From Octopus sinensis (Eukaryota): a stretch of 64,000 bases of DNA. Below the pieces are notes generated by a model that was not told the origin of the DNA, did not search any database, and saw nothing but the letters and a program-made list of their open reading frames with translations. This document shows positions 13,140-60,960 of this stretch, in pieces. Within the stretch, counting starts at the first letter, position 1, and the number at the start of each line of letters is the position of its first letter. The stretch covers positions 75,020,001 through 75,084,000 of the forward strand of contig NC_042998.1 of NCBI RefSeq assembly GCF_006345805.1, read 5' to 3'. Both the position numbers and the translations under genes were made by a program.

Positions 13140-13334
13140 AAAATGAAGTAATTCAGTTCTATGTTTAAGAGATGAAGAATTATGTACATTATTTAAATTA
13201 TTTACATTTGACGGGTGTTTGTCCTCATCTTGTTTGTTGTTAACAAAACGTTTCGGCTGATATACCTTCCATCCTTCATCAGGTGTCTTGGGGAAATTTA
13301 GAACCTAGATTCTCATTCTTAAGGTATTTTTCGA

Positions 13335-13368
<34 letters not shown>

Positions 13369-13381
13369 ATTTTTATTGTTA

Positions 13382-13427
<46 letters not shown>

Positions 13428-13535
13428 GATTATTATTATTATTATTATTATATTATTATTATTATTATTATTATTATTTTTATTTTTATTTTTATTATTA
13501 TTATTATTATTCATGTCACTGCCTGGAATTGAACT
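13140..13535 (-). mobile_element. Inverted PLE pseudo-LTR: truncated tRNA-like B box, (AAT)n/(AAC)n, then HHR tail
   Basis: The minus strand starts AGTTCAATTCCAGGCAGTGACATGA(ATA)n, matching the + copy at 13760-13790, and continues to the HHR at 13242-13287. Confidence 0.75.
13242..13287 (-). ncRNA. Minimal type I hammerhead ribozyme (PLE-type), slightly decayed
   Basis: GACAC CTGATGA AGGATG-gaaggtatat-CAGCC GAA ACGT T^ TTGTT. Core intact, palindromic stem III ACGT, one mismatch each in stems I and II. Confidence 0.7.
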
Positions 13536-13562
13536 ACGCCATAATTTCAAGAAAAAAAAAGA

Positions 13563-13673
13563 GATCACCGCTGGAAAATACGAAATCTAAAAGAAGCAGC
13601 ACATATGCCAGGACACAACAACTTACTAAGCAGACCGAGTGCAGATATGAATAGCATATGGGAACCGGTATGA
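13563..13673 (+). mobile_element. Penelope-like GIY-YIG endonuclease C-terminus (5'-truncated)
   Basis: Translates DHRWKIRNLKEAAHMPGHNNLLSRPSADMNSIWEPV*, matching the W..R.LKEA..I...N...W.P tail typical of Penelope/Poseidon ORFs. Confidence 0.7.
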
Positions 13674-13712
13674 AGGAAGGATAGGAAAATATTAGAATTA
13701 TAAGCCCTAAAA

Positions 13713-13780
13713 TTCACTCCATAATGGTTAAGAGCACGGGCTACTAACACTAAGATTCCGAGCTCGAATCCTGGCAGTGA

Positions 13781-13781
<1 letters not shown>
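13713..13781 (+). other. tRNA-derived cassette (Pol III A/B boxes) in the PLE 3' region
   Basis: TCACT..CATAATGGTTAAGAGC (D arm/A box), GGGCTACTAAC (anticodon arm), GAGCTCGAATCC (B box) and CAGTGAC (acceptor 3' strand). It is decayed and not a functional tRNA. Confidence 0.7.
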
Positions 13782-13825
<44 letters not shown>

Positions 13826-13890
13826 TGATAGTAATAATAATAATAATAATATAATAATAATAATAATAATAATATAATAATAATAATAAT

Positions 13891-14353
13891 AAGATGGGCT
13901 ACAGCAAATATTCTGCTCAATACCACAGATTTGCTTGTCAGTTGTTTGACCTTAACCAGTTGAGCATGTCCCTTAGTGGCTGACGATATGTGCATCTCTG
14001 ATCACGAGCAGAAGTAGTGGGGGAGCATCATAGCCATGTGTTGAGAGGGATTCTTTGGGGTTTGAATAGTTCACCTCTGGAAACATGGGTGGTTCTTTCA
14101 ACATCCTTAAACAACCCTTATTCAGGGACCTTTTGAGCGGGATGGGCTACTCAACCTGAAGAAAATTCTAACTGGGCCCCACCTGCAAGGTCATGTGCTG
14201 TTTATCTTGATATGAGATCACCATGTCGCGCACATATGGTTGTGATGCATGTGCCTGGTGTACCTTTATCAGACGGGTAGTCATGATGGGTATATTGGGC
14301 TTCGTATATTTTACCCCAGTGTCACGTTGATGGCATGCACAGCTCTCTCACTC
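13891..14353 (+). mobile_element. Non-coding interspersed element copy 1, embedded in (AAT)n
   Basis: Near-identical to 14433-14831; flanked by (AAT)n on both sides and ends CTCTCTCACTC(AAT)n. Confidence 0.8.
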
Positions 14354-14371
14354 AATAATAATAATAATAAT

Positions 14372-14831
14372 ATGGCTTCTTATCTTAACTGATCGGAAGT
14401 GTTATCATGTACATTGTTTTGTCTTGGTATAAAAGATGGGCTACAGCAAATATTCTGCTCAATACCACAGATTTGTTTGTCAGTTGTTTGACTTTAACCG
14501 GTTGAGCATAGTCATGTGTTGAGAGGGACTCTTTGGGGTTTGAATAATTCACCTCTGGAAACATGGGTGGTTCTTTCAACATCCTTAAACAACCCTTATT
14601 CAGGGACCTTTTGAGCGGGATGGGCTACTCAACCTGAAAAAAATTCTAACTGGGCCCCACCTGCAAGGTCATGTGCTGTTTATCTTGATATGAGATCACC
14701 ATGTCGCGCACATATGGTTGTGATGCATGTGCCTGGTGTATCCTTATCAGACGGGTAGTTATGATGGGTATATTGGGCTTCGTATATTTCACCCCAGTGT
14801 CACTTTGATGGCATGAACTGCTCTCTCACTC
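14372..14831 (+). mobile_element. Non-coding interspersed element copy 2, embedded in (AAT)n
   Basis: About 60 bp longer at the 5' end than copy 1, lacks the ~64 bp at copy-1 positions 13968-14031, and has the same 3' end plus (AAT)n. Confidence 0.8.
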
Positions 14832-15255
14832 AATAATAATAATAATAATGAATGGTTCTGTTTAGCCGTCTAGATAACGTCTTCGATAATACGGTACACT
14901 TCGCTAATACGGTACACTTCGATTAATATGCTTGTACTCACATGGACTATATGTTTGTGTGTCCGTAAGCACAGGTTGTGCAAAAATAAACATAGTTACT
15001 TCGATGGGCCTGTTAATGCAATAAAATTATAATTGTGATGTCCATACAATATATATATATATATATATATAAATATAAACGCACACACACTTTTACATAT
15101 GTGTGTACATATACGTATACATACCTGTGTATTTATCTCTCGCTCTCTCCCTCTATCTCTCTCTCTATCTCTATCTCTCTCTCTCGCTATATATATATAT
15201 ATATATTATATATATATATACATAGGTATATATCCGTCTCTCTCATTAATCAGAC

Positions 15256-32757: not shown

Positions 32758-35700
32758 TGTAATGTATGACCAGTGAATCCTGCTTCAAAGAAACTAGTTC
32801 TTAGTCATAGTCCTGTACGTTATTCCGAATGCCCGTTCTCTCTCTTCCTCTTCCTGTCAAATGCGTATGCTCTTTATATCAACGTTATTTGCATAATATT
32901 CACTCACTCATAGATAAAGAACGAAAAATCATAGATCAAGCCTCTACGGGGCTTCCCGAATCCTTTGTGATCGACGCAGCTGAGGTGATTCTTTTTGTCT
33001 CGACGTTTATCTCTAGCAAGAGGAGAAATTTCAGTTGGTTCCCTATCTGGCTCTTGAGGGACAAATGTTTGGGTTAATCTTCTCTGGTGATGCCAATTGT
33101 TTTGTGGATACTGTGGCTTAGCAACCGTCTGGGTAACGAACGTGAGCGTATTGGGGTTTGGCTTCGATTAAATCAATTTGGTCCACGATAGAGTCATACT
33201 TGTTAGTACAAGTGTTCCTTTGAAGAGGCGCAGGTCCTGGGTTAAGAAGCCATGTTGACATAGATGTTCCTGTTGCTGAATGTCTTTGATAGTTAAAACG
33301 TTCGTGATCTGATAGAATGCAACCCGTCTCGGAGAACAGTTTCCCATGAAGATACTGGAAGGGCACGGGTTTTCAAAGAGATTAGTGCTGACTTCCAAAT
33401 AATACCATTATATCTTTCTACTTGACTGTTCCTAGTGGGATTGTATGGTGTCGTCCTATTCGTTGAAAGCCATTCTCTCAATCTTGTAGACATAAAGGCT
33501 GTTCCACGATCTGAATATACATAATTGGGCATACCAAAAGCTGAGAACAAGTCTGTATGACACTTTATAAGAGTCTTAGCTGATGTGTCAAATACTGGAT
33601 AACCACATGGAAACCAAGAGTATTCGACAACTATTGTTAGGAGATAAGGATGCTTCGTGAAATCGGACCTTTGAAATCGATGGAAATTCGCTCGAAGGGT
33701 TGTATGGCCTTAATTAACTGACTCTGGTTTATAATATTGTGGTTTCACTTCTTAATATATAGAGCAATTCCTACATATTTGTTTCATGTTCTCTAACGAA
33801 TATGGAATATTTCTACTGCGGACGAAATGATGAAGGCGTACTATACCAGGATGGCACAGTGCTGCATGTAACTCATAAAGTGAATGTGAACTAATTGCTG
33901 AACAGCGTACCCTGTGAATGCTTCAGAAGCGATGTTACTGGATCCTGGGCGATAGTGAATATCATATGAGATAACGCAATGCGCCATCTCATAATTTTAT
34001 CAGTTTTAATTTTTGCTCGTCACTATATAATTATACATGAATGCATCTGAACGTTGATCAGTAATTAATGTAAAATGCCTACCTAGAAGAAAGTGTCTCC
34101 AATGATGAATTGATTCGATAATTTCTTGGGCTTCCTTTTCAAATGATTATTTGTACTGTTCGCTACCTTGCAACGTGCGAGACTGGAATGCAACTGGTCT
34201 TCCATCTTGATTTAGTGTTGCAGATATGGCAACATCCGAACGAACCGGCTCAACAGTAAATGGAATGTTCTCATCTACTACTTGAATGGTTGCATTGGCT
34301 AGTTCTACCTTTAATGACTCAAATGCTTTTACTTGTTGGCTGTTTAGAGGAAATTTAATACGTTATTTAGAGAATATATTTTGTCATAAAATTTGGAGAT
34401 CCACTTAGCATAAGAAAACATACCGACTATACGTTTTAATGCTTTCTGGTCAGTTGCTGTACGAAGATTGAGGAGTGAATCAAGCCTTTCTGGGTCAGGG
34501 TTGAGGATATTGTGTGAGATACGGTATCCAAGAAAGTCAAGCATTGTTGTTGAGTAAACGCATTTGTCTTCATTCATGGTAAGCCCTTCACTTTTTGCTA
34601 CCATTTCAAATTTTTATCGTGCTCACTTTGATATTTCCCACGTATGCTTCAATTTTCTATGAATGGGAACGTACCTCGCAGCTTATATTTACTCACGAAG
34701 TCGTCCATTTTACGTTGGAAACCTGCGCTGCCGTTAGTTACTCCGAATAGAATCCTAGTATAATGCCATAATTTACCATCAGCTTCAAAGGCAGTAAATT
34801 AACTGTCTTTCTTTGGCGATAGTGTTCACTAACACATCAATTTTAGGAAGCAGGTAGGCATCAAGCTGTGTATATCTGTTAATCGTCTCTGAGTAGTCAA
34901 TAACCATTCTTCGATTTTTTTTTTCTTGAACAGCTAACACTTGCGATCTCCAAGGGGAGTTACTAGGTTCAATAATGTTCGCAGCTGCTAAGCGGCGTAC
35001 TTCTGTCCTGGTGAACTCTCGATCACGTTCCGAGTATTTTCGCGATTTGGTTGCAATAGGTTTACATTCCTCTCTGAGATGAGCGAATAGCTTTGGGGGA
35101 TCAGTTTTCATAGCTGTTAGCGCAGTAAATGTTAATGGTAGTCTCTGTTCTCCATATCATATGGAAATACTTTCTTGCAATTCTTGGAAGTCAGTGCCCA
35201 GAATTAGGTCAGTGTACAAGTTTATGAGCACGTACAGTTTCACATGGCAGTATTTCTGATTATTCAAGGTTAGTGAAACAGCGCATTATCCATTGGATTC
35301 CACAGAAAGAGATGCAGAAGCCATACCAATGACGTTCTTCAATTTGACCGTCTTGATGTTGAGTGTTCACTAGCTTATCACTGATGAAGCTCTTGTCAGT
35401 GCTACCGCTATGAAGGTTTCGGCTTTATAGCTATTGTTCAGTATAGCCATGGAGATTACTCGGAAGGGTGAACCTGCTGATGCTGATACTGCCAATGGAA
35501 AATCATATTTACCATCATCCTGTGTTACAGTTGCTACGTTGCTCCTACATAGTTTCTTTTAGCATTTGTGACAGACTGCTTTCCACGCAGGGCGGTGAGT
35601 CTGCGAGTGTCTGGAATAGCCGCAAAAACCAACATTGAAAGGAGTCTCCATTTCGGGTCGCGGTAGAGTGTTTTCGTTCCTGCTTTGGGGAATCTGTTGG

Positions 35701-36442
35701 CTTAGCTACAATTGGTGCAGTTGGACTGAAGTTGGCACCCTCAGAGTTTAGAAAGACACTGGAACTCTATTGCGCCACATCAAAAGTACTGAGGTCGACA
35801 CTTTTGTTTTCTAATAGTCTTTGTCGTATTTGATTCGAAGTGAGCCCATTTATAAATGCATCTCGAATCATTTCAGACGGGTACTGCTCAGCACTCACTG
35901 CAACAAAGTCACAGTCTTTCGCTAATATTTTGAGATTGTTTAAGAACTGGTCTAGAGATTCCCCTGCCTTCTGTTTTCTTGTGGCTAAAAGATGGCGTGC
36001 CATTACGATGTTCCTTGGTTTAATGCACACACTCTTTAGTGTATTCACAGCTTGATCATAGTTCTTAGCTTCACTGATGAATTCGTATACGTTCAGTTCC
36101 AAATAATTAATCAAAAGATTGAGTTTATCGATAATCCTATCTTCCTGCCCTGGTAGTGAGTATATAAAGTTGGTGAAAGTTCTAAACCAGTGATTAAAAG
36201 TTTTATCAGCATTTGTAGAATTTGGGTCTACATTCAATCTGTCAGGTTTCAAGTATCTTTCCATATCGTTCACGTCTTTTCACAAATTTATTTCTCAATA
36301 GACTGCTCTGCAACTTTTCCCAATTGTGTATTTCTTGTTTCAAAGAAACTAATTTTTTGTCATAGTCCTTTACTTTATTCCGAATGGCTGTTCTCCCTCT
36401 TCTTCTTCCTGTCAAATGCCCATGCTTTTTATTTGCATAACA
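32758..36442 (-). mobile_element. Ty3/Gypsy LTR retrotransposon, complete provirus with decayed ORFs
   Basis: TG...CA LTRs at 32758-32902 and 36325-36442, and TSD CGTAT at 32753-32757 and 36443-36447. Minus-strand order is gag (35767-36273) with a Cys-knuckle relic, protease LHSGSTDKSFI, RT (IIEPSNSPWRS, RMVIDYS, LDFLGY), RNase H (SDVAISATLNQDGRPVAF), integrase (LCHPG, FERISIDFKGP, SDRGTAF, QVERYNG). Confidence 0.95.
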
Positions 36443-58299: not shown

Positions 58300-60960
58300 T
58301 TCCTCTGTATCTAGATCATTTGCACCATATTTATAAAAGACTTGCAATATGACAAAAGACATAAAATATTCTAAATATACTAAACTATTTCAAAAACAAC
58401 TCTCTGAAACCATATCTAAAATAGATGCCTCATAATATGTACATGCGTTTATTGATAAAACTAGGAACCTCTATGCATTATCTATCGAAACCTATCATAA
58501 TTTACTACAAAAAGACCTTAACACCAATTACAAACACACTCACGCAAACGCATTGAATGATATTAATAAAACATATTATAAATTAATAAAGGATTTGGAC
58601 CTACTCAACAGAACTGAACCATACGTTCCGAGAACACCACGTTTAATACTGAAGGACCGTAAACCCAAATTTCAAGCTAAACCTTCTGTCGGATTCAAGC
58701 ATCATTAGTAAAACCATTTTAGATAGAGTGTTACCCAAAATTAAAGAGAACGTAGAGCTCCTCCTCTGGAACTCAACTGGTGACGTAATTACATGGTTTC
58801 ATTCCCTCAGGGGCAAACATCATATTAAATTCATCCAATTTGATATTTTCGATTATTACGTTTCAGTAACACCTAAATTACCGAGTGAAGCATTATCATT
58901 TGCCCAAAAACTGTATCACAATTTCTGCATCTCATATAGACATAATCGTGGCTGCTAGAAAGACCCTTATAAGGTTTCATGTTAAAAATTGGACCCGTAA
59001 TACTAACTCTGACCCTTCTTGATATAACAATGAGATCCTCGCATTCAGCTCAATTAACAAACCTTGTTGGACTATTTCTTCTGTCAAACATTAAGCAACA
59101 CTTCCCTAACATCTCCGGAGGCCTCCATAGAGATGGCACGCTTTTGGAAACTAAAAACTTCTCCCGTCTAGAGATTGAACGCACTTAGAAAATTTAATAA
59201 AATTCTTTAAAAATTATAATTTAAATATAGTGTTGGAAATAAATCTTAATATATCTCATTTTGTACACGTCACACTTAATCATAAAATCAATCTCCACTA
59301 TCCATATACGAAACCAAATCAAACCCTTCAGTACCTAAACGTTCTTTCTAATCATCCTAGATCAACCCTCGATGGCATGCTAACGGCTATCCCAATTAGA
59401 ATCTCAAACTTATCGGCGAACGAGGAGATATTTAACACCCAGGCTCCGTATTATAACTAAACCTTAAAGTTAAGTGTTTTTAAAAAAGAAATACTTTACA
59501 TCCCTGATACAATTCTTCAGACAAAAAATGTCAAATATCTTGAATGGAACTGGCTCACAGTCTAATAATACGACCTCCAATTTAGGTAAACCAATTAAAA
59601 ACACTGTATGAATGAAGCCCGAATTAATAACATGGCATTTGGGAATTCACATAAATATAAATATAAATCCTACATCGACATCCAATCTAATCAGACCAAA
59701 ATATCAAAATCTAGGAAATGTGGAATTATATGGTTTGCCCCGCCCTTCTCTCTTCAGGTCAAATCTTTTACTCAAATTGTTTTTTAACATACTGAAAAAA
59801 TTGTTTCTTAAAAATCATAAATATTATTCTATTTTTAATAAATTATCTGTAAAATTGTCGTACTCAACTACTCCGAATTTAGGTTCCATCATAGCATCCA
59901 TCAATAGATCTAAACTCAGACTTAAGAAATTTATCTACACAAATCTTTAAAATGAACTCTATAATCCCCAAACTGGCAATAGCTCTAGCGTTAACATTAC
60001 GCCAGGTCAACCTTCACAGGTCAACCCCTCTAATAACTGGAAAATTAATAATGATGTGAGGGTGGGGAACATGTCGAATAAAGGTGTTATGTCCTTTAGC
60101 TGGTTCCTGTTTACGTAATAACGTAGTATATAGTTGTTCTGTAGAAATCCCTGCTACACAGGGGTTAAGAATTCATATAGGAAGCACTGTAGACTTTAAA
60201 CGTAGGTATCGGAACCGTTTGAACTCTTTCACTAACGCAAAATATAAATCTTCTACAACGCTAACCGCGTATATACAAGAACTTAAACTAAAAAATATAC
60301 AATACACATTATCTTGGTCAATAATACCAGAAGCACCGCCATACAATACAATTACGTGTGTATGTAAATTGTGTATTCGAGAGCCCATAAATATACTTCG
60401 TCGACATGGACCTACATCATTAAATAAGTTCTTGGATGCTATATTTCCTTGTAACCATAGATACCATTCAACATTTAAATATTTTCGTAAATCTAGCGGA
60501 AATAACCATTTAATTTTTAATTATCAATACTTCGATTAATTTCTATACTATTGCAATCCTGTAACCTCATATTGACCAATTATTATCTTCTTAACATTTA
60601 TAAATTCTCTAAATTACATTTCCCATAATTCTTTATTATGATACTTCCTCCTCCTGTTAACAACTTCACCACCCTGTATAACTAAATCTCATCTACCCAG
60701 TACAAAGTCGCACGAAATATGAATTCTAAATAATATACTCTCTCATGGATTTTTGGAGTGAAAATACCTTTAAAATTAATGGATTACTGTACCCTTGAAA
60801 CGGACGGCCGTAAGGGGATTATCACTAACAGTTTCCCTAATCAGGATTACTTATTCTCTTGGATTATTTACATTTGTGTTTTGAAATATTCCAACCTCAA
60901 CGCTACGATGTTTTTTATTCGCTCTTCGGAAGACTTTACTTTATTCATCTTTTTTTTGTA
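58300..60960 (+). mobile_element. Penelope-like retroelement (probably Naiad clade), RT plus C-terminal GIY-YIG, decayed
   Basis: DKTRNLY, LKDRKPKF, FIQFDIFDYYVSVT, LDITMRSSHSAQLTNLVGLFLL, GLHRDG (cf. GLYRDDG), PYTKPNQTLQYLNVLSNHP, VKLSYSTTPNL and EN CPLAGSCLRNNVVY..HIGSTVDFKRRY..CKLCIRE. A degraded HHR 3' half GAA..ACGGCCGTA lies near 60797-60812. Confidence 0.9.

What the first reader, a model, noticed from the sequence alone, without database searches (positions are those of the whole stretch)
13140..13890. PLE 3' region carrying a tRNA-derived Pol III cassette upstream of its hammerhead
Seen in sequence: a PLE EN C-terminus (13563-13673) is followed 40 bp later by a tRNA-like cloverleaf remnant with A and B boxes (13713-13781) and then (AAT)n. 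The inverted upstream copy shows that the same B-box/(AAT)n junction continues into an HHR (13242-13287). The reconstructed unit is ORF end, tRNA cassette, (AAT)n, HHR. Inference: the pLTR could be transcribed by Pol III and trimmed by the ribozyme, giving a SINE-like or retrozyme-like RNA mobilised by a Penelope RT rather than a LINE. This would link PLEs, SINEs and Pol III/HHR satellites such as schistosome SM-alpha.
Basis: partly seen in the sequence, partly recalled or inferred. Interest (0 to 1): 0.75.

Follow-up and report, generated by a model that had tools for sequence, protein, structure and literature searches.

The report
Penelope retrotransposon with tRNA-derived promoter
This is a broken head-to-head pair of copies of a very common Penelope-type jumping gene whose end repeat opens with a tRNA-derived segment where most copies begin, so the element is likely started by RNA polymerase III, the cell's small-RNA polymerase, which would be unusual for a protein-coding transposon.

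Summary
The unit is real and not a chance landing. ORF end, tRNA-like head, (AAT)n and minimal hammerhead form the fixed end repeat (pLTR) of an abundant Penelope/Poseidon retrotransposon with an 834-aa RT-GIY-YIG ORF (about 30,000 tail copies). In the tandem form the head sits just upstream of the ORF start. Of 67 position-ordered copies reaching the head's 5' end, 50-57 stop within 10 nt of tRNA +1, a tenfold jump in truncation rate. A and B boxes are intact while the tRNA stems have decayed. The 2.8-kb sense strand has no TTTT terminator (3-5 expected; present in 42 of 43 related PLE ORFs and 14 of 14 host RT families). Pol III initiation is therefore likely but untested. Ribozyme trimming is not supported: 29 of 30 copies span the cut site and end at two Penelope-type RT start zones beyond it. 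Short copies show no diagnostic differences, so they are not a separate SINE lineage. This window's own boxes and hammerhead are damaged. The scan reported this family before on other DNA.

The parts
13149..13335 (-). Inverted arm: PLE 'tail' = first ~165 nt of the ORF (start ATG at 13314-13316), ending at the distal RT start zone
   Evidence: alignment to family model; ORF start
13242..13287 (-). Minimal type I hammerhead: stem I 13283-13287 with 13242-13246, core 13276-13282 and 13247-13254, palindromic 2-bp stem III, predicted cut between 13247 and 13246; two stem mismatches in this copy
   Evidence: sequence; motif definition from PMC4209133 passages; no Rfam hit
13336..13511 (-). (AAT/AAC)n spacer of the inverted arm
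13512..13543 (-). Inverted tRNA head remnant: starts at tRNA +6, A-box start fused to B box by an internal deletion of about +16 to +53
   Evidence: sequence; B-box part aligned
13544..13559 (.). Head-to-head joint between the two arms (A-rich, weakly similar to the ORF)
13560..13703 (+). Forward arm: 3' end of the PLE ORF (GIY-YIG C-terminus); premature stop 13671-13673, family stop 13701-13703
13704..13724 (+). Linker remnant between stop codon and tRNA head (23-nt deletion follows)
13725..13782 (+). tRNA-derived head, positions +16 to +73; A box mostly deleted; B box 13762-13771 with T54C
13785..13892 (+). (AAT)n spacer of the forward arm; its hammerhead tail is missing, an unrelated younger repeat follows

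Best explanation
The locus is a decayed head-to-head pair of copies of an abundant Penelope/Poseidon retrotransposon whose end repeat begins with a tRNA-derived A/B-box cassette that likely serves as an internal RNA polymerase III promoter and sets the 5' end of the element's RNA. Shown: the cassette lies both after the stop codon and, in 5' pLTRs, about 100-150 nt upstream of the ATG of an 834-aa RT-GIY-YIG ORF; copies begin at tRNA +1; they end at two zones past an uncut hammerhead; most have an inverted partner. Inferred steps: (1) a tRNA-Arg-like SINE or tRNA pseudogene with an (AAT)n tail was captured into the pLTR; (2) Pol III starts about 2-7 nt upstream of tRNA +1 and, meeting no T4 terminator, can run through spacer, hammerhead and ORF; (3) the Penelope protein binds the ORF 5' region and starts reverse transcription internally, 40-65 or 78-100 nt past the ribozyme site, as shown in vitro for PAc; (4) starting at the 5'-proximal site, or on RNA from a solo or 3' pLTR, yields the dominant ~300-nt SINE-like copy, and starting at the 3' site yields ORF-bearing copies; (5) two cDNAs primed on opposite strands, or one folding back, join at the near-palindrome around +1 to give head-to-head pairs. 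The minimal hammerhead is predicted to cut only as a dimer and seems not to shape the inserted RNA.
For: Fixed linkage. 5'-end cliff: of 93 B-box-anchored copies in 86 position-ordered loci on contig 1, 26 end in +11..+49, 50 in -10..+10, 7 more at -12..-18 where a fold-back arm mimics the linker, 10 go beyond; hazard 0.8% per nt in the head, 9% at +1, 0.3% in the ORF; binomial P 6e-27 without reassigning the 7. A head-only query gave 27 of 29 loci without linker or ORF upstream. Exact 25-mers: ORF end 637, B box 1424, tail 9662, reversed controls 0. ORF-bearing templates start there too: 4 of 7 copies that reach the 5' pLTR head begin at +1..+4, 3 are partial tandems. Boxes kept, stems lost: acceptor 2 of 7, D 3 of 4, anticodon 3 of 5, T 3 of 5 pairs. 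No T4 run in the 2823-nt majority model; 3.0 expected with codon usage kept (P 0.026), 4.9 under a neutral third-position model (P 0.004); Phe TTC 14 to TTT 6. Controls: T4 in 42 of 43 related PLE ORFs of 400 aa or more from metagenomes and in 14 of 14 RT families of this genome (133 observed, 113.5 expected). Of 30 host tRNA loci, 25 have a T run within 40 nt and 15 of these are T4. PAc precedent for internal starts and uncleaved template: PMC11167929.
Against: No direct transcription evidence: three RNA-seq runs show no strand bias and no discrete start, only the genomic copy profile. The T4 test is modest (P 0.004-0.03), G4 runs are also absent (1.05 expected, P 0.28), the model is a majority sequence while controls are single copies, and one control PLE ORF (L338, no tRNA or B box found) also lacks T4. 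A hairpin (-6.8 to -8.5 kcal/mol) spans the cliff and a TATA-like word lies about 30-36 nt upstream of +1, so stalling or a Pol II start would fall in the same place. In an earlier set only 2 of 10 ORF-5' copies reached the head. How an uncapped RNA would be translated is unexplained. The B-box anchor favours less diverged copies.
Confidence: 0.62

Rival explanations
1. The cliff is a transcription start, but of Pol II: the tRNA piece is a relic and a core promoter (TATA-like word at the stop codon, or an internal LINE-type promoter) starts at about the same place.
For: D. virilis Penelope has an internal TATA-less promoter (PMC2377424, abstract). A TATA-like word overlaps the stop codon 30-36 nt upstream of +1 (sequence). 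A capped RNA solves translation.
Against: Copies that begin at +1 and carry the ORF (L303, L319, L321, L306) lack the upstream word. It does not explain intact A and B boxes on decayed stems or the lack of T4 runs.
Confidence: 0.15
2. There is no start here: RT copying a longer Pol II read-through RNA stalls or folds back at the hairpin that spans -14 to +10, so truncations pile up at +1.
For: The hairpin coincides with the cliff; 19 of 57 copies starting there carry a fold-back arm; deletions across it are common in ORF-linked copies, this window included.
Against: The hairpin is weak, and windows as stable at +16 and +151 lie on every copy's path without a cliff (26 of 30 copies pass the whole hammerhead). 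38 of 57 lack the fold-back arm. A drop of 75-85% in 20 nt is large for such a stem.
Confidence: 0.12
3. Pol III makes only the short cassette RNA of a distinct non-autonomous SINE lineage, and the cassette in the PLE is a passenger; or, as in the first reader's refuting case, the head is an independent SINE.
For: Short copies outnumber ORF-linked ones about 8 to 1 (83 against 10) and have SINE anatomy. 15 of 93 heads lack a tail.
Against: No diagnostic base separates 57 short from 52 ORF-linked copies and divergence is similar (3-5% against 4-6%). All 15 tail-less heads end in the AAT array, where other repeats insert. ORF-bearing copies also begin at +1.
Confidence: 0.1

Closest known systems
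Penelope/Poseidon EN+ PLEs, e.g. PAc of Anolis carolinensis (PMC11167929, parts 1-2 of 4 read; PMC8557442, introduction and passages)
   Same: Single RT + C-terminal GIY-YIG ORF; ORF start overlapping the hammerhead region; two RT start zones 30-40 nt apart; uncleaved template; inverted 5' partners; partial tandems.
   Different: The pLTR opens with a tRNA-derived A/B-box cassette and (AAT)n; the sense strand lacks T4 runs; D. virilis Penelope uses an internal LINE-like promoter (PMC2377424, abstract).
TRIMp3: Cassandra, Helenus, Ajax (PMC10886601, passages)
   Same: Small-RNA-derived Pol III promoter inside a terminal repeat, proposed to arise by SINE insertion into the repeat.
   Different: Those are non-autonomous LTR elements, and that paper expects their autonomous partners to use Pol II; here the cassette is in the autonomous, protein-coding PLE.
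tRNA-derived SINEs (SINEBase definition, PMC3531059, passages); octopus OK/OR1/OR2 (Ohshima and Okada 1994, seen only as a citation)
   Same: Short copies are under 700 bp, tRNA-headed, tens of thousands in number, and share their 3' end with an autonomous element.
   Different: Partner is a PLE, not a LINE; no 3' simple-repeat tail; head-to-head insertions; no separate lineage found. Whether one of the 1994 families is this element could not be checked.
Schistosome SM-alpha/Sj-alpha hammerhead SINE-like repeats (PMC6765202, passages)
   Same: Pol III-type promoter followed by a type I hammerhead in a short repeat.
   Different: Those are tandem and released by ribozyme cleavage; here copies are inverted pairs, the hammerhead is the minimal dimer type, and inserted RNA was uncut.
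Animal non-LTR retrozymes (PMC7229834, passages; bioRxiv 10.64898/2026.07.22.740005, part 1 of 5 and term search)
   Same: Non-coding, hammerhead-bearing, related to PLE pLTRs.
   Different: Retrozymes are head-to-tail arrays giving circular RNA; 2 of 83 short copies here have a direct partner. The preprint's main text has no mention of tRNA or Pol III.

Membership tests
EN+ PLE, Penelope/Poseidon clade | Single ORF with RT and C-terminal GIY-YIG endonuclease | tested here: met
   834-aa majority ORF; RVT_1 hit; C-terminus aligns at E 4e-29 to P0064, which carries PF01541; profile hits telomerase RT at E 7e-4
EN+ PLE, Penelope/Poseidon clade | CCHH motif with two Cys between GIY and YIG; no extra Zn finger in the RT-EN linker | tested here: met
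   Read from translations against the definition in PMC8557442
EN+ PLE, Penelope/Poseidon clade | Placement in the clade by RT phylogeny with named references | not tested
   No named reference sequences were at hand; no tree built
EN+ PLE, Penelope/Poseidon clade | pLTRs from partial tandems, often an inverted 5' copy | tested here: met
   Partial tandems L327, L328, L331; 52 of 83 short copies with inverted partner
EN+ PLE, Penelope/Poseidon clade | Optional 30-40 nt tail from two RT start sites | tested here: met
   45 of 78 ends at 40-65 nt and 28 of 78 at 78-100 nt past the cut site
EN+ PLE, Penelope/Poseidon clade | Minimal type I hammerhead with palindromic stem III in the pLTR | tested here: met
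   Core and stems read from sequence; 1997 exact core+stem II matches; Rfam does not call it; cleavage not tested
tRNA-derived SINE | tRNA-derived head with A and B boxes | tested here: met
   Alignment to host tRNAs; boxes intact in the family majority, damaged in this window
tRNA-derived SINE | Transcribed by Pol III from the internal promoter | not testable with these tools
   Indirect only; RNA-seq uninformative
tRNA-derived SINE | Non-autonomous lineage distinct from its partner | tested here: not met
   No diagnostic differences between 57 short and 52 ORF-linked copies
tRNA-derived SINE | Reverse-transcribed by a partner LINE | tested here: not met
   3' ends and inverted partners are PLE-type and shared with the PLE
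Non-LTR retrozyme / SM-alpha type | Head-to-tail tandem arrays of hammerhead units | tested here: not met
   2 of 83 with a direct upstream partner within 130 nt
Non-LTR retrozyme / SM-alpha type | Unit ends set by ribozyme cleavage | tested here: not met
   29 of 30 copies span the cut site; 2 of 78 3' ends fall at or before it
Non-LTR retrozyme / SM-alpha type | Circular RNA monomers | not testable with these tools
   One go-back joint in the RNA-seq carries flank letters and looks like a genomic partial tandem; not evidence of circles

The most novel reading that the evidence does not exclude
An autonomous animal retrotransposon whose entire 2.5-kb RT-endonuclease ORF is transcribed by Pol III from a captured tRNA promoter, purged of T4 terminators and translated without a cap (the unstructured AAU/AAC leader is a candidate enhancer), and which spawns its own SINE-like parasites from the 5' end of the same RNA: SINE-type copies driven by a Penelope enzyme instead of a LINE.
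Probability: 0.4. Interest if true: 0.85.

Novelty: new variant of a known kind. Interest (0 to 1): 0.62.

Why it matters
SINEs are defined as Pol III elements that depend on LINEs, and protein-coding retrotransposons are taken to use Pol II (PMC3531059, PMC10886601, passages). A PLE with a built-in Pol III promoter would break both rules, extend the TRIMp3 idea to an autonomous element, and show one route from PLE ends to tRNA+hammerhead repeats. It also gives a clean read-out on an open PLE question: the 5' end of the RNA is marked, and the copies show that the hammerhead does not trim the template, matching the in vitro PAc result. Nine literature searches listed no paper title or abstract describing a tRNA/Pol III cassette in a PLE pLTR; Repbase and the 1994 octopus SINE paper could not be seen, so the short form may already have a name.

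Tried and rejected
ARAGORN and Rfam: no tRNA or hammerhead call in the window or copies. RNA: no run on record as RNA holds the stretch in the index ('no RNA holder listed'); three raw RNA-seq runs gave equal depth on both mate directions, no discrete starts, and a threefold step at +1 that mirrors genomic copy structure, so they say nothing on Pol III. The excess of A>G and T>C there reflects decay of the reference copy and was not read as editing. Ribozyme-defined ends: rejected. Separate SINE subfamily: not found. tRNA cassette in related PLEs: no A+B box pair or B box within 500 nt after the ORF and no A+B pair before it in 43 metagenome ORFs, though some had little flank, and no ARAGORN gene in 40 of 79 loci scanned; the closest relatives (54-68% identity) had no DNA available. 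L338, the one T4-free control, has a T-rich 3' region and no Rfam hit. Isotype: only 6 isotypes (15 distinct tRNAs) were sampled, so Arg is provisional. The 5' column was wrong (index error) and was redone. Target-site duplications were not analysed. Not seen: Ohshima and Okada 1994 (not held), the SINEBase table, bioRxiv supplements, and the PLE consensus files of PMC8557442; any of these may bear on novelty.

Full report
Setting. The window lies in a 2.72-Gb animal genome; its repeat content resembles an octopus (recalled, not tested). The finding sits in microsatellite-rich DNA with no host gene nearby among ORFs of 120 aa or more.

The locus. Aligned to a family model, 13149-13543 is an inverted arm and about 13560-13892 a forward arm, joined head to head. 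The forward arm holds the last 47 codons of a GIY-YIG domain with a premature stop at 13671; the family stop is 13701-13703. A 23-nt deletion then removes tRNA +1 to +15, and the B box has T54C. The inverted arm starts at tRNA +6, has lost about +16 to +53, and runs through (AAT/AAC)n into the hammerhead (13242-13287), which has two stem mismatches. The forward tail is missing; a younger unrelated repeat follows the AAT array. Neither arm is likely to be functional, so the interest lies in the family.

Is the linkage real? A search with ORF end plus head gave 4483 candidates, 40 scored, 30 fetched; 25 of the 29 other loci show the tail downstream. Anchoring on RT instead, 14 of 15 copies that reach the ORF end continue into head and tail (20 loci). 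Anchoring on the B box, 78 of 93 copies have the tail, and all 15 others end in the AAT array. Contigs from runs of four organism labels bridge ORF end and head.

The element. [quoted passage not shown] Its ATG lies 70 nt upstream of the hammerhead cut site, so the 'tail' is the ORF start, as in PAc. The pLTR is thus linker, tRNA head, (AAT)n, ORF start with hammerhead; in a tandem or 5' pLTR the head sits where the promoter should be. Exact 25-mer counts are 637 (ORF end), 1424 (B box, two CpGs) and 9662 (tail); 24 of 78 copies match the tail word exactly, giving roughly 30,000 tail copies, of which 18 of 30 sampled have a head upstream. Copies differ from the majority by 3-6% at non-CpG sites.

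The head. It no longer folds as a tRNA and keeps 11 of 21 stem pairs, but aligns colinearly with host tRNAs, best with Arg-TCT (z 7.9; 15 distinct tRNAs, 6 isotypes). The majority has a full A box at 8-18 and B box at 53-62.

Where copies begin. I took the first B-box matches along contig 1 in position order: 30 loci (4 overlapping ones dropped) and 60 more from its list, 93 copies in 86 loci. 26 end within +11..+49, 50 within -10..+10, 7 at -12..-18 where an inverted head mimics the linker, and 10 go further. The truncation rate is 0.8% per nt in the head, 9% at +1 and 0.3% in the ORF. Among 30 loci anchored just inside the ORF 5' region (some are duplicates of one locus), 7 reach a forward head; 4 start at +1..+4 and 3 are partial tandems. 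An earlier set had only 2 of 10 reaching the head. So both short and ORF-bearing templates can begin at the tRNA start.

Which polymerase? Host tRNA genes end mostly at T4 (15 of 25 runs; 30 loci, some identical). The 2823-nt model has no T4 run on the sense strand and 30 on the antisense; 3.0 (P 0.026) or 4.9 (P 0.004) are expected. No T4 position is shared by 20% of copies. Of 79 metagenome PLE loci, 43 had an open frame of 400 aa or more and 42 of them contain T4; 14 of 14 RT families in this genome do (46 ORFs), as does a different PLE-like remnant in this window. Against: the test is modest, G4 is also absent, and L338 lacks T4 with no cassette found. The hairpin at the cliff is weak, and equally stable windows at +16 and +151 cause no cliff. 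RNA-seq is uninformative.

The ribozyme. It fits the minimal type I motif with palindromic stem III, reported to need a dimer and to cut poorly (PMC4209133). 29 of 30 tail-anchored copies span the cut site, one starts 2 nt from it, and 73 of 78 3' ends fall in two zones 40-65 and 78-100 nt beyond it. This matches PAc, where RT starts at two internal sites on uncleaved RNA (PMC11167929). Trimming by the ribozyme is not supported.

SINE or not? Short copies look like SINEs but share their majority sequence with ORF-linked copies; the only strong differences lie in the anchor word itself. 52 of 83 have an inverted partner and 2 a direct one. They work like PLE-driven SINEs but fail membership as a separate SINE lineage and as retrozymes.

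What is known. Closest are Poseidon PLEs for mechanism, TRIMp3 for a Pol III promoter inside a terminal repeat, and SM-alpha for promoter plus hammerhead. The 2026 retrozyme preprint links retrozymes to pLTRs without mentioning tRNA or Pol III. Passages of two octopus repeat surveys list PLEs and SINEs with no ribozyme mention. Nine searches listed no description of this arrangement; Repbase, the SINEBase table and the 1994 octopus SINE paper were not seen. I formed my reading, which showed nine notes of this scan (eight listed) on what appears to be the same family in at least two genomes; they are not independent support. One of them reads the short form as a distinct parasite, which one search does not support.

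Verdict. A real, abundant new variant of a Penelope/Poseidon element. Pol III initiation at the captured tRNA is the best explanation (0.62); Pol III transcription of the whole coding RNA is plausible (0.4). Interest 0.62.

Noticed in passing
window 13891-14360 and 14372-14850 (+): Two copies of an unrelated ~560-nt repeat flanked by (AAT)n, inserted in the forward arm's AAT array; genome copies are about 98% alike (5955 candidates) and several begin at the same 5' word after an AAT array. Likely an AAT-targeting element, perhaps moved by a Dong/R4-type LINE (recalled, untested).
   Followed up: partly
window about 58800-60540 (+): Decayed RT plus GIY-YIG-like element of another PLE type with a C-terminal Cys/His motif; 9 T4 runs, no B box or hammerhead motif found; no Pfam hit.
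   Followed up: partly
window 33293-36279 (-): Broken Ty3/gypsy-like LTR retrotransposon: gag-like, RT-like and integrase frames (rve hit E 3.6e-10).
   Followed up: no
family linker, tRNA -14 to +10 (e.g. L074 1440-1462): The linker's last 14 nt are a near-inverted copy of the head's first 10 nt, as if a fold-back joint was fixed when the tRNA piece was captured; the 10 nt from -6 to +4 are almost self-complementary and could let two cDNA ends anneal.
   Followed up: partly
L306/L314, L319, L328: Copies that begin at the head and run 340-430 nt past the tail into the ORF, then stop: further internal RT starts or later deletions.
   Followed up: no
family spacer upstream of the ATG: The (AAT)n grades into (AAC)n just before the ORF start, recalling CAA-repeat translation leaders of plant viruses (recalled; speculation).
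   Followed up: no
L338 2600-4745: The closest metagenome relative (47-48% identity) also has about 2.1 kb without a T4 run, but a T-rich 3' region and no tRNA-like cassette found.
   Followed up: partly
family-wide: Head-to-head pairs inside host transcripts would form long RNA hairpins, possible ADAR substrates; opposite-strand joints at +1 appear in RNA-seq reads.
   Followed up: no
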